From assembly GCA_964016885.1 (NCBI GenBank), contig OZ024762.1:9052001-9116000 (forward strand): 64,000 nt of DNA, read 5' to 3'. This document shows, one piece after another, positions 54,775 through 54,961 of this stretch; position 1 is the first letter of the stretch, and each line of letters begins with the position of its first letter. The notes below the pieces were generated by a model. The model did no database searches and was not told where the DNA came from. It worked only from the letters and a program-made list of their open reading frames with translations. Source of the DNA: Eledone cirrhosa. Taxonomy: Eukaryota. The translations under genes were made by a program, and so were the position numbers.

Positions 54775-54961
54775 CGAAGGAAATGGGGTAAGGAACCAGG
54801 TGGACCATAACGCACCAAAGTACTCAATACTTAGGGTAGTAGAGTGGGTAATAGGAACCAGTAAGACCCCGACGGCTGAGCTCAAGCCGTTTCGACGGCT
54901 AATTCAGAATTAGCCGTCGAAACGGCTTGAGCTCAGCCGTCGGGGTCTTACTGGTTCCTAT
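54771..54961. mobile_element. PLE-like family X fold-back (55-bp perfect arms)
   Basis: 54851-54905 / 54907-54961; GAAA-CGGCT(TGAGCTC)AGCCG-TC is an HHR 3' half with a GUC triplet. Confidence 0.75.

What the first reader, a model, noticed from the sequence alone, without database searches (positions are those of the whole stretch)
54851..54961. Fold-back symmetry centres coincide with hammerhead helix II
Seen: the perfect palindrome is centred at 54906, 12 bp before GAAA-CGGCT..AGCCG-TC, so the CUGANGA half is replaced by the reverse complement of the downstream sequence. The same geometry occurs at 38830-38946, 40396-40497 and 55523-55779. At 30941-31143 the second arm starts exactly at the first base of helix II. 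Inference: nascent cDNA may snap back on the helix-II hairpin and self-prime second-strand synthesis, giving a specific mechanism for the inverted 5'-truncated PLE termini and disabling the ribozyme.
Basis: partly seen in the sequence, partly recalled or inferred. Interest (0 to 1): 0.75.

Follow-up and report, generated by a model that had tools for sequence, protein, structure and literature searches.

The report
Penelope palindromes mark RNA ends
This mirror-image sequence is one of over ten thousand back-to-back stubs of a Penelope-type jumping gene, and the halves meet not at the ribozyme hairpin but at two fixed points that likely mark where the copied RNA begins and where its built-in ribozyme is predicted to cut it.

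Summary
The palindrome is real: two head-to-head ends of a Hydra-type Penelope-like element in (TA)n, one with a 78-nt tail. The centre lies in the 3' end of hammerhead loop II, not on helix II. The junction that helix-II snap-back would leave has 1 genome-wide match, a chance join, against 10,736 junctions in a 19-nt zone (control 5). Arm ends pile up 17-18 nt before GAAA, 29 nt after a TATA-like box, and again exactly at the predicted ribozyme cut (31 of 41 listed junctions). Other sampled families mostly keep CUGANGA. Best reading: reverse transcriptase, primed on both target strands at two internal sites, likely runs off the RNA's 5' end, and the two short cDNAs are joined. The RNA start is inferred: no RNA run was listed, and my three blind position predictions in other families failed. 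The architecture is known; self-priming was proposed in 2013. This scan's earlier unchecked notes reached a similar reading on other DNA.

The parts
54773..54905 (-). Long arm: PLE end from -12 to +120 (0 = G of GAAA at 54893)
   Evidence: Matches the pLTR of the full-length copy in L133
54773..54850 (-). 78-nt tail present on one arm only (+43..+120); its two ends are the inferred reverse-transcription start sites
   Evidence: Same two outer ends in most sampled copies; start-site role from PMC11167929
54905..54961 (+). Short arm: -14/-12 to +42
54904..54907 (.). Head-to-head junction in the 3' end of loop II, 4-6 nt short of the family pile-up at -17/-18
54911..54916 (+). 3' strand of hammerhead helix II (TAGCCG); its native partner, the core and the TATA-like box are absent from this stub
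   Evidence: Native copies and centroid fold
54919..54946 (+). GAAA, helix III (54923-54939), TC, predicted cut after 54941, helix I 3' strand; mirrored on the minus strand (GAAA 54890-54893, cut between 54871 and 54870)
54730..54772 (.). (TA)n target tract, left
54960..54978 (.). (TA)n target tract, right; shares AT with the arm end
38830..38946 (.). Family B palindrome (with tail to about 38761); arms begin +1 and +8 from the C of CUGAAGA, shorter than the family pile-up at -6/-7
55523..55779 (.). Family D palindrome; junction inside a long helix II but out of helix register, unlike the sampled family palindromes
30941..31143 (.). Family C palindrome; minus-strand arm keeps CTGACGA, other arm starts at helix II, 18 extra letters between
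40396..40497 (.). Older family C palindrome centred just 5' of GAAA

Best explanation
The palindrome is a minimal insertion of a Hydra-type Penelope-like element, likely made when both strands of a cut (TA)n target primed reverse transcription at two internal sites near the start of one RNA, each short cDNA likely ran off the RNA's 5' end, and the two were likely joined head to head by end-joining repair. Shown: the anatomy, the two outer ends (+42, +120), and two inner pile-ups (-17/-18 and +23). Inferred: -18 is the transcription start of a promoter nested in ribozyme loop II, so such transcripts cannot self-cleave at their 5' copy; +23 is the 5' end left by hammerhead cleavage of read-through RNA; longer arms arise when the enzyme gets past these ends.
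For: Pile-up at -17/-18: deepest arm end in 29 of 64 parsed pairs (50 of 64 in -22..-12) and in 33 of the 50 loci listed (hand count, overlapping sample), only 4 of 50 deeper although the pattern allowed -30. Over 207 distinct arms: 22.5 ends per nt at -18/-17, 0.06 per nt over core and helix II 5' strand. Non-inverted copies stop there too (L044, L090, L102, L107, L121). TATTTAAA starts 29 nt before the A at -18 in two subfamilies; family B has TATAAATA 29 nt before its own pile-up, where 19 of 25 truncated ends lie at -7..-2 from CUGAAGA. Cut site: pattern 804 vs control 328; of 50 listed loci 9 are chance, 31 of 41 real ones have the deepest end exactly at +23, 21 with both arms there (hand count; 5 blunt ones could be read 1 nt deeper). 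Two primers: either arm may be the deeper one (14 / 15 / 35 within 2 nt); non-overlapping arms in L344, L351 and in read-derived contigs; extra and locally templated letters at junctions (L099, L120, L122, L126). One RNA as a rule: arms share haplotype in 56 of 65 pairs vs about 45% if independent; L115, L065, L025 differ by known variants. In vitro a PLE protein cuts and extends both strands and starts at the two tail ends (PMC11167929).
Against: No 5'-end RNA data. My three blind predictions from the TATA+30 rule failed: family E has no pile-up there (a looser cluster near -90 was seen afterwards), N is a tandem array, I is dispersed; family C shows no pile-up; family D's pile-up has its TATA-like box at -41, and in B and D it also coincides with the 5' edge of helix I. 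A third A subfamily has only TATTCAAA/TATTCATA, and 4 of 18 native copies have a C3/A8 mismatch that should impair cleavage, yet their downstream haplotype (shared with U3-A8 copies) occurs among +23 junctions. PMC11167929 found no RNA-seq reads ending at the cut and no need for cleavage in vitro. Later deletions across palindrome centres could mimic asymmetric and non-overlapping arms. Samples are the first-listed copies on one contig, chosen by exact anchors.
Confidence: 0.63

Rival explanations
1. One cDNA runs to the RNA's 5' end, then closes on itself and self-primes the second arm (self-priming as proposed in PMC3846280, at the RNA end rather than at helix II).
For: Arms share haplotype in 56 of 65 pairs; when one arm ends at +23 the other usually does too; some centres sit on self-complementary words (GAATTC, GTAC, TCGA).
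Against: Tail-less arm deeper in 12-14 of 64; non-overlapping arms; zero-loop blunt joints with both arms at -17 (L081, L110, L113); 2-3 pairs with different haplotypes.
Confidence: 0.15
2. Two primers as in the best reading, but the -18 pile-up is a block to reverse transcriptase (bound protein, tertiary fold) or an RNA processing site, not the transcription start.
For: TATA spacing fits only A and B; B and D pile-ups match the helix I edge; blind predictions failed.
Against: In A the stop lies in an unpaired A/U-rich loop after helix II has been opened; A and B place it at different ribozyme positions but at the same distance from a TATA-like box.
Confidence: 0.14
3. One reading: nascent cDNA snaps back on the helix II hairpin and self-primes.
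For: Centre lies between the helix II strands in A; two family C copies (L227, L238) look helix-II-centred by eye.
Against: 0 true matches of the predicted junction vs 10,736 others; 1 of 207 arms ends in the core/helix II 5' zone; B and D palindromes keep CUGANGA. The family C cases could equally be joins through helix II complementarity.
Confidence: 0.03
4. The palindrome moves as a ready-made MITE-like unit, or longer palindromes were trimmed after insertion.
For: Constant outer ends and near-constant size.
Against: Junction letters differ from copy to copy within one haplotype; non-inverted copies end at the same base; random deletion gives no sharp 5' limit.
Confidence: 0.04
5. Assembly artefact.
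For: This locus's centre was not bridged by a listed contig.
Against: Arms are unequal, junctions are biologically placed, and read-derived contigs of two samples hold head-to-head joints starting at -15..-22 (one may be the source sample).
Confidence: 0.01

Closest known systems
EN+ Penelope-like element insertions with inverted 5'-truncated pLTR and optional tail (PMC8557442, PMC3846280, PMC2377424; passages read)
   Same: Head-to-head inverted end, tail on one arm only, (TA)n target, type I hammerhead in the pLTR; PMC3846280 notes TATA- and Inr-like motifs in a pLTR and palindromes at the junction, and proposes self-priming.
   Different: Tail is 78 nt rather than 30-40; most copies are stubs of about 190 bp; junctions map to two single-base pile-ups, which the passages read do not report.
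Hydra clade of C-terminal EN+ PLEs (PMC8557442 section 11, read)
   Same: Intact 719-aa ORF with RWR, DKT, CxCx5C linker, CxxC and CxH around the conserved E and N; (TA)n target; hammerhead.
   Different: Unit somewhat over 3 kb with a 1.2-kb 3' UTR; U3-A8 core; no tree built.
Poseidon element PAc of Anolis in vitro (PMC11167929, main text read)
   Same: Both target strands cut and extended; reverse transcription starts at the two tail ends near the 5' part of the RNA.
   Different: That study saw no RNA ends at the ribozyme cut and did not address how the inverted arm is joined.
L1 twin priming and retroviral minus-strand strong-stop DNA (both recalled, not read)
   Same: Two target-primed cDNAs on one RNA joined by end joining; short cDNA running off the RNA 5' end.
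   Different: L1 inversions do not duplicate sequence and have no fixed internal start; no tRNA primer, integrase or true LTR here.
U3-A8 hammerheads of Schistosoma Cercyon PLEs (PMC4209133, passages read)
   Same: U3-A8 in place of C3-G8 in a PLE hammerhead.
   Different: Here helix III is a stable 5-bp stem and loop II is 37 nt and holds a TATA-like box.

Membership tests
EN+ Penelope-like element | Single ORF with RT and C-terminal GIY-YIG endonuclease, in the sense of the pLTR | tested here: met
   L133:3580-5739, 719 aa, FDI / YRDD and VIY..YIG motifs read by eye; 2,054 relatives at E<=1e-20, one with a GIY-YIG Pfam hit. Pfam and PDB gave no hit for the protein itself.
EN+ Penelope-like element | pLTR in partial tandem with inverted 5'-truncated copy and one-sided tail | tested here: met
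   L031, L133 layouts; tail on exactly one arm in 63 of 65 pairs.
EN+ Penelope-like element | Hammerhead motif in the pLTR | tested here: met
   Three helices in the centroid fold of a native copy (fold energy not better than shuffles, z -0.86); U3-A8 core in 14 of 18. No hammerhead family among the 150 of 684 Rfam rows shown.
EN+ Penelope-like element | Target-site duplication | tested here: inconclusive
   Both ends lie in (TA)n, so none can be read.
Hydra clade | RWK-like, DKT, CxCx5C, CxxC/CxH motifs; (TA)n target | tested here: met
   RWR, DKTG, CNCPDRSIC, CNLC, CKH.
Hydra clade | Placement in the RT phylogeny | not tested
   No reference set was fetched.
Active hammerhead ribozyme | Self-cleavage after the UC | not testable with these tools
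   Only indirect: junction pile-up at +23.
Helix-II snap-back product | Whole loop II kept, join in helix register | tested here: not met
Non-LTR retrozyme | Head-to-tail tandem units each with a complete hammerhead | tested here: not met
   Family A stubs are dispersed head-to-head pairs lacking the core; family N does fit.
Pol II core promoter | Capped RNA starting at the initiator about 30 nt after TATA | not testable with these tools
   Spacing fits A and B, not D or E; no RNA run listed.

The most novel reading that the evidence does not exclude
These stubs are fossil strong-stop cDNAs. The element hides its promoter inside ribozyme loop II, so its transcript starts with an uncleavable half-ribozyme and ends at the cut of the complete 3' ribozyme; the 41 nt between start and cut form a retrovirus-like R region for a strand transfer. 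Failed transfers from both target strands give the palindromes, and the +23 class is genomic evidence that a metazoan PLE hammerhead cleaves in vivo.
Probability: 0.35. Interest if true: 0.78.

Novelty: new variant of a known kind. Interest (0 to 1): 0.52.

Why it matters
How Penelope-like elements make their inverted ends and what their hammerheads do are open questions (PMC8557442, PMC4209133, PMC11167929). Ten thousand junctions from a family with an intact ORF give base-level predictions: where the RNA starts, where it is cut, and that both target strands are primed. They can be tested with 5'-end sequencing and the existing in vitro assay. The element type itself is ordinary.

Tried and rejected
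Helix-II snap-back: rejected. Splice acceptor at TTTAG/TCC as the cause of the pile-up: rejected, since ends keep the AG and no upstream exon follows. TATA+30 rule as a general predictor: written down first and failed in E, N and I. My first impression of a pile-up in family C was not borne out (that parser handles subfamilies poorly). A template jump to a SINE in family D: rejected, the SINE is an insertion with element sequence on both sides (L186, L191). RNA evidence: no RNA holder listed; read-level mapping on a native pLTR remains open. Rfam rows shown were microsatellite-driven miRNA models; the repeat finder was swamped by microsatellites. Pfam and PDB: no hit for the ORF. Paper searches that returned no description of junction pile-ups at a PLE start site or ribozyme cut: (open-access library only). 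No supplements were opened; Fig. S2 of PMC11167929 and file S2 of PMC8557442 may bear on this.

Full report
Observation. The palindrome is as described: 55-bp perfect arms around 54906. It is part of a 189-bp unit, 54773-54961, between two (TA)n tracts, the left arm carrying 78 extra bases. The window lies in a 3.0-Gb genome held as G000. The 23-nt GAAA-stem motif has 27,336 exact copies, the tail junction 7,996, the tail end 21,338.

What it is. Copies that run further upstream lead to an ORF in the same sense; L133 holds an inverted truncated copy, a pLTR and an intact 719-aa ORF with RT and GIY-YIG motifs read by eye and the motifs listed for the Hydra clade. Pfam and PDB gave no hit for it; 2,054 relatives were found. 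Native ends carry a type I hammerhead: helix I ACCCC/GGGGT, core UUGANAA in 14 of 18 distinct copies and CUGAGAA in 4, helix II with a 37-nt loop, GAAA, helix III, predicted cut after UC (centroid fold). U3-A8 is a reported PLE variant (PMC4209133 passage). With the G of GAAA as 0, helix II is -51..-46 with -8..-3, the cut lies between +22 and +23, and the outer ends are +42 and +120.

Where the arms stop. I parsed 93 of the 7,996 tail-junction anchors, the first listed on contig C1. A strict parser found a short inverted arm in 64; it missed at least four (L046, L065, L108, L128) and mis-ended two (L101, L118). The deeper arm ends at -17/-18 in 29 of 64 and at -22..-12 in 50 of 64. Genome-wide, 10,736 junctions have both arms reaching -11 with at most 19 letters between (control 5); of the 50 listed, by hand count, 33 end at -17/-18, 13 at -16..-12 and 4 deeper. 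Over 207 distinct arms in all loci held (samples partly chosen by the GAAA motif), 45 end at -18/-17, 56 at -16..-9, 29 at -22..-19 (inflated by chance A/T matches), 15 at +22..+24, 1 in -61..-44 and about 20 run through. Non-inverted copies stop at the same place.

The helix-II test. Snap-back on helix II would keep loop II whole. That junction has 1 match in the genome, which continues into unrelated AT-rich flank. In family B (2,215 anchor matches) 19 of 25 truncated ends lie at -7..-2 from CUGAAGA (two look over-extended); in D (3,633) 11 of 17 lie at -8..-2, three of them SINE insertions; both keep the core. The window's B and D copies are shorter than typical. C (84 matches, 30 read) shows no pile-up; two copies look helix-II-centred.

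What the pile-ups are. A TATA-like 8-mer begins 29 nt before the A at -18 in two A subfamilies and 29 nt before the B pile-up; D has it at -41 and E nowhere consistent. A promoter within the pLTR is known for Penelope (PMC2377424 passages, TATA-less) and TATA/Inr-like motifs were noted in a rotifer pLTR (PMC3846280 passages). I therefore infer a transcription start, but three blind predictions failed in E, N and I (30 loci each), and no RNA run was listed. The second pile-up is sharper: 804 matches vs 328 control; among 50 listed, 9 are chance, and of 41 real junctions 31 have the deeper end exactly at +23, 5 at +24/25, 5 at +16..+22 (hand count; 5 blunt joints are ambiguous by one base). This is the first base after the predicted cut. 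Against it, some copies have a C3/A8 core, and PMC11167929 (main text read) found no reads ending at the cut in Anolis.

One primer or two. The tail-less arm is deeper in 14 pairs (12 without parser errors), the tailed arm in 15, and they are within 2 nt in 35. Two of 30 tail-end-anchored copies have arms that do not overlap, and contigs of runs X1 and X4 hold joints with one arm from -15..-22 and the other cut back to +30..+81 (15 of 38 joints shown; X1 may be the source sample). Junctions carry extra or locally templated letters, which recalls polymerase-theta joining (recalled). Arms share haplotype in 56 of 65 pairs against about 45% expected in this biased sample; three differ by variants seen elsewhere. 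This fits two primers on one RNA as a rule, in line with a PLE protein that cuts and extends both strands from the two tail ends (PMC11167929). Later deletion and end-closing self-priming are not excluded.

Known and new. The inverted end with one-sided tail is textbook for PLEs and its origin is called unresolved (PMC8557442 passages); self-priming was proposed in PMC3846280. Searches returned no account of junctions mapping to a start site or ribozyme cut; the bioRxiv retrozyme preprint was seen as passages only. I noted my reading, before consulting earlier scan notes; those reach similar readings in other genomes and for retrozymes of this genome, are unchecked, and are not counted as support.

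Verdict. Interest 0.52.

Noticed in passing
window 38661-38696: Stub of a sister family sharing the family A tail; its centre sits on GGGTCC, the position matching the ribozyme cut.
   Followed up: partly
window 14099-14509: Family E palindrome (38,524 anchor matches) keeping CTGATGA in both arms; sampled E copies show a loose cluster of 5' ends about 90 nt before the core, followed about 40 nt later by a GTATGT donor-like site, as in the Penelope 5' intron.
   Followed up: partly
window 42186-43105; L279-L286, L294-L296: Family N: 422-bp head-to-tail units each with a full hammerhead, some arrays head to head; looks like a non-LTR retrozyme (6,176 anchor matches).
   Followed up: partly
window about 50100-51700: Tandem array of 231-bp units, seven with CTGACGA followed by GAAA.
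   Followed up: no
window 46148-46264 and 42186-42275: Further near-perfect palindromes, families not determined.
   Followed up: no
L186, L191, L192: A SINE-like repeat sits at the same ATTATTT site just before the family D core in 3 of 30 sampled loci.
   Followed up: partly
L090: Head-to-tail family A units in which the start of the ORF joins directly to position -18/-21, as if the enzyme jumped from the RNA 5' end to an internal site.
   Followed up: no
tails of families A and B (window 54820-54832; 38799-38812): Both tails share GTATTGAGTAC, and both share AAATACCAG just after the TATA-like box; possible protein-binding or promoter motifs.
   Followed up: no
window about 54400-54595: Another inverted-end element next to the finding (ends near AAAGAGTGAAGAATA and its complement).
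   Followed up: no
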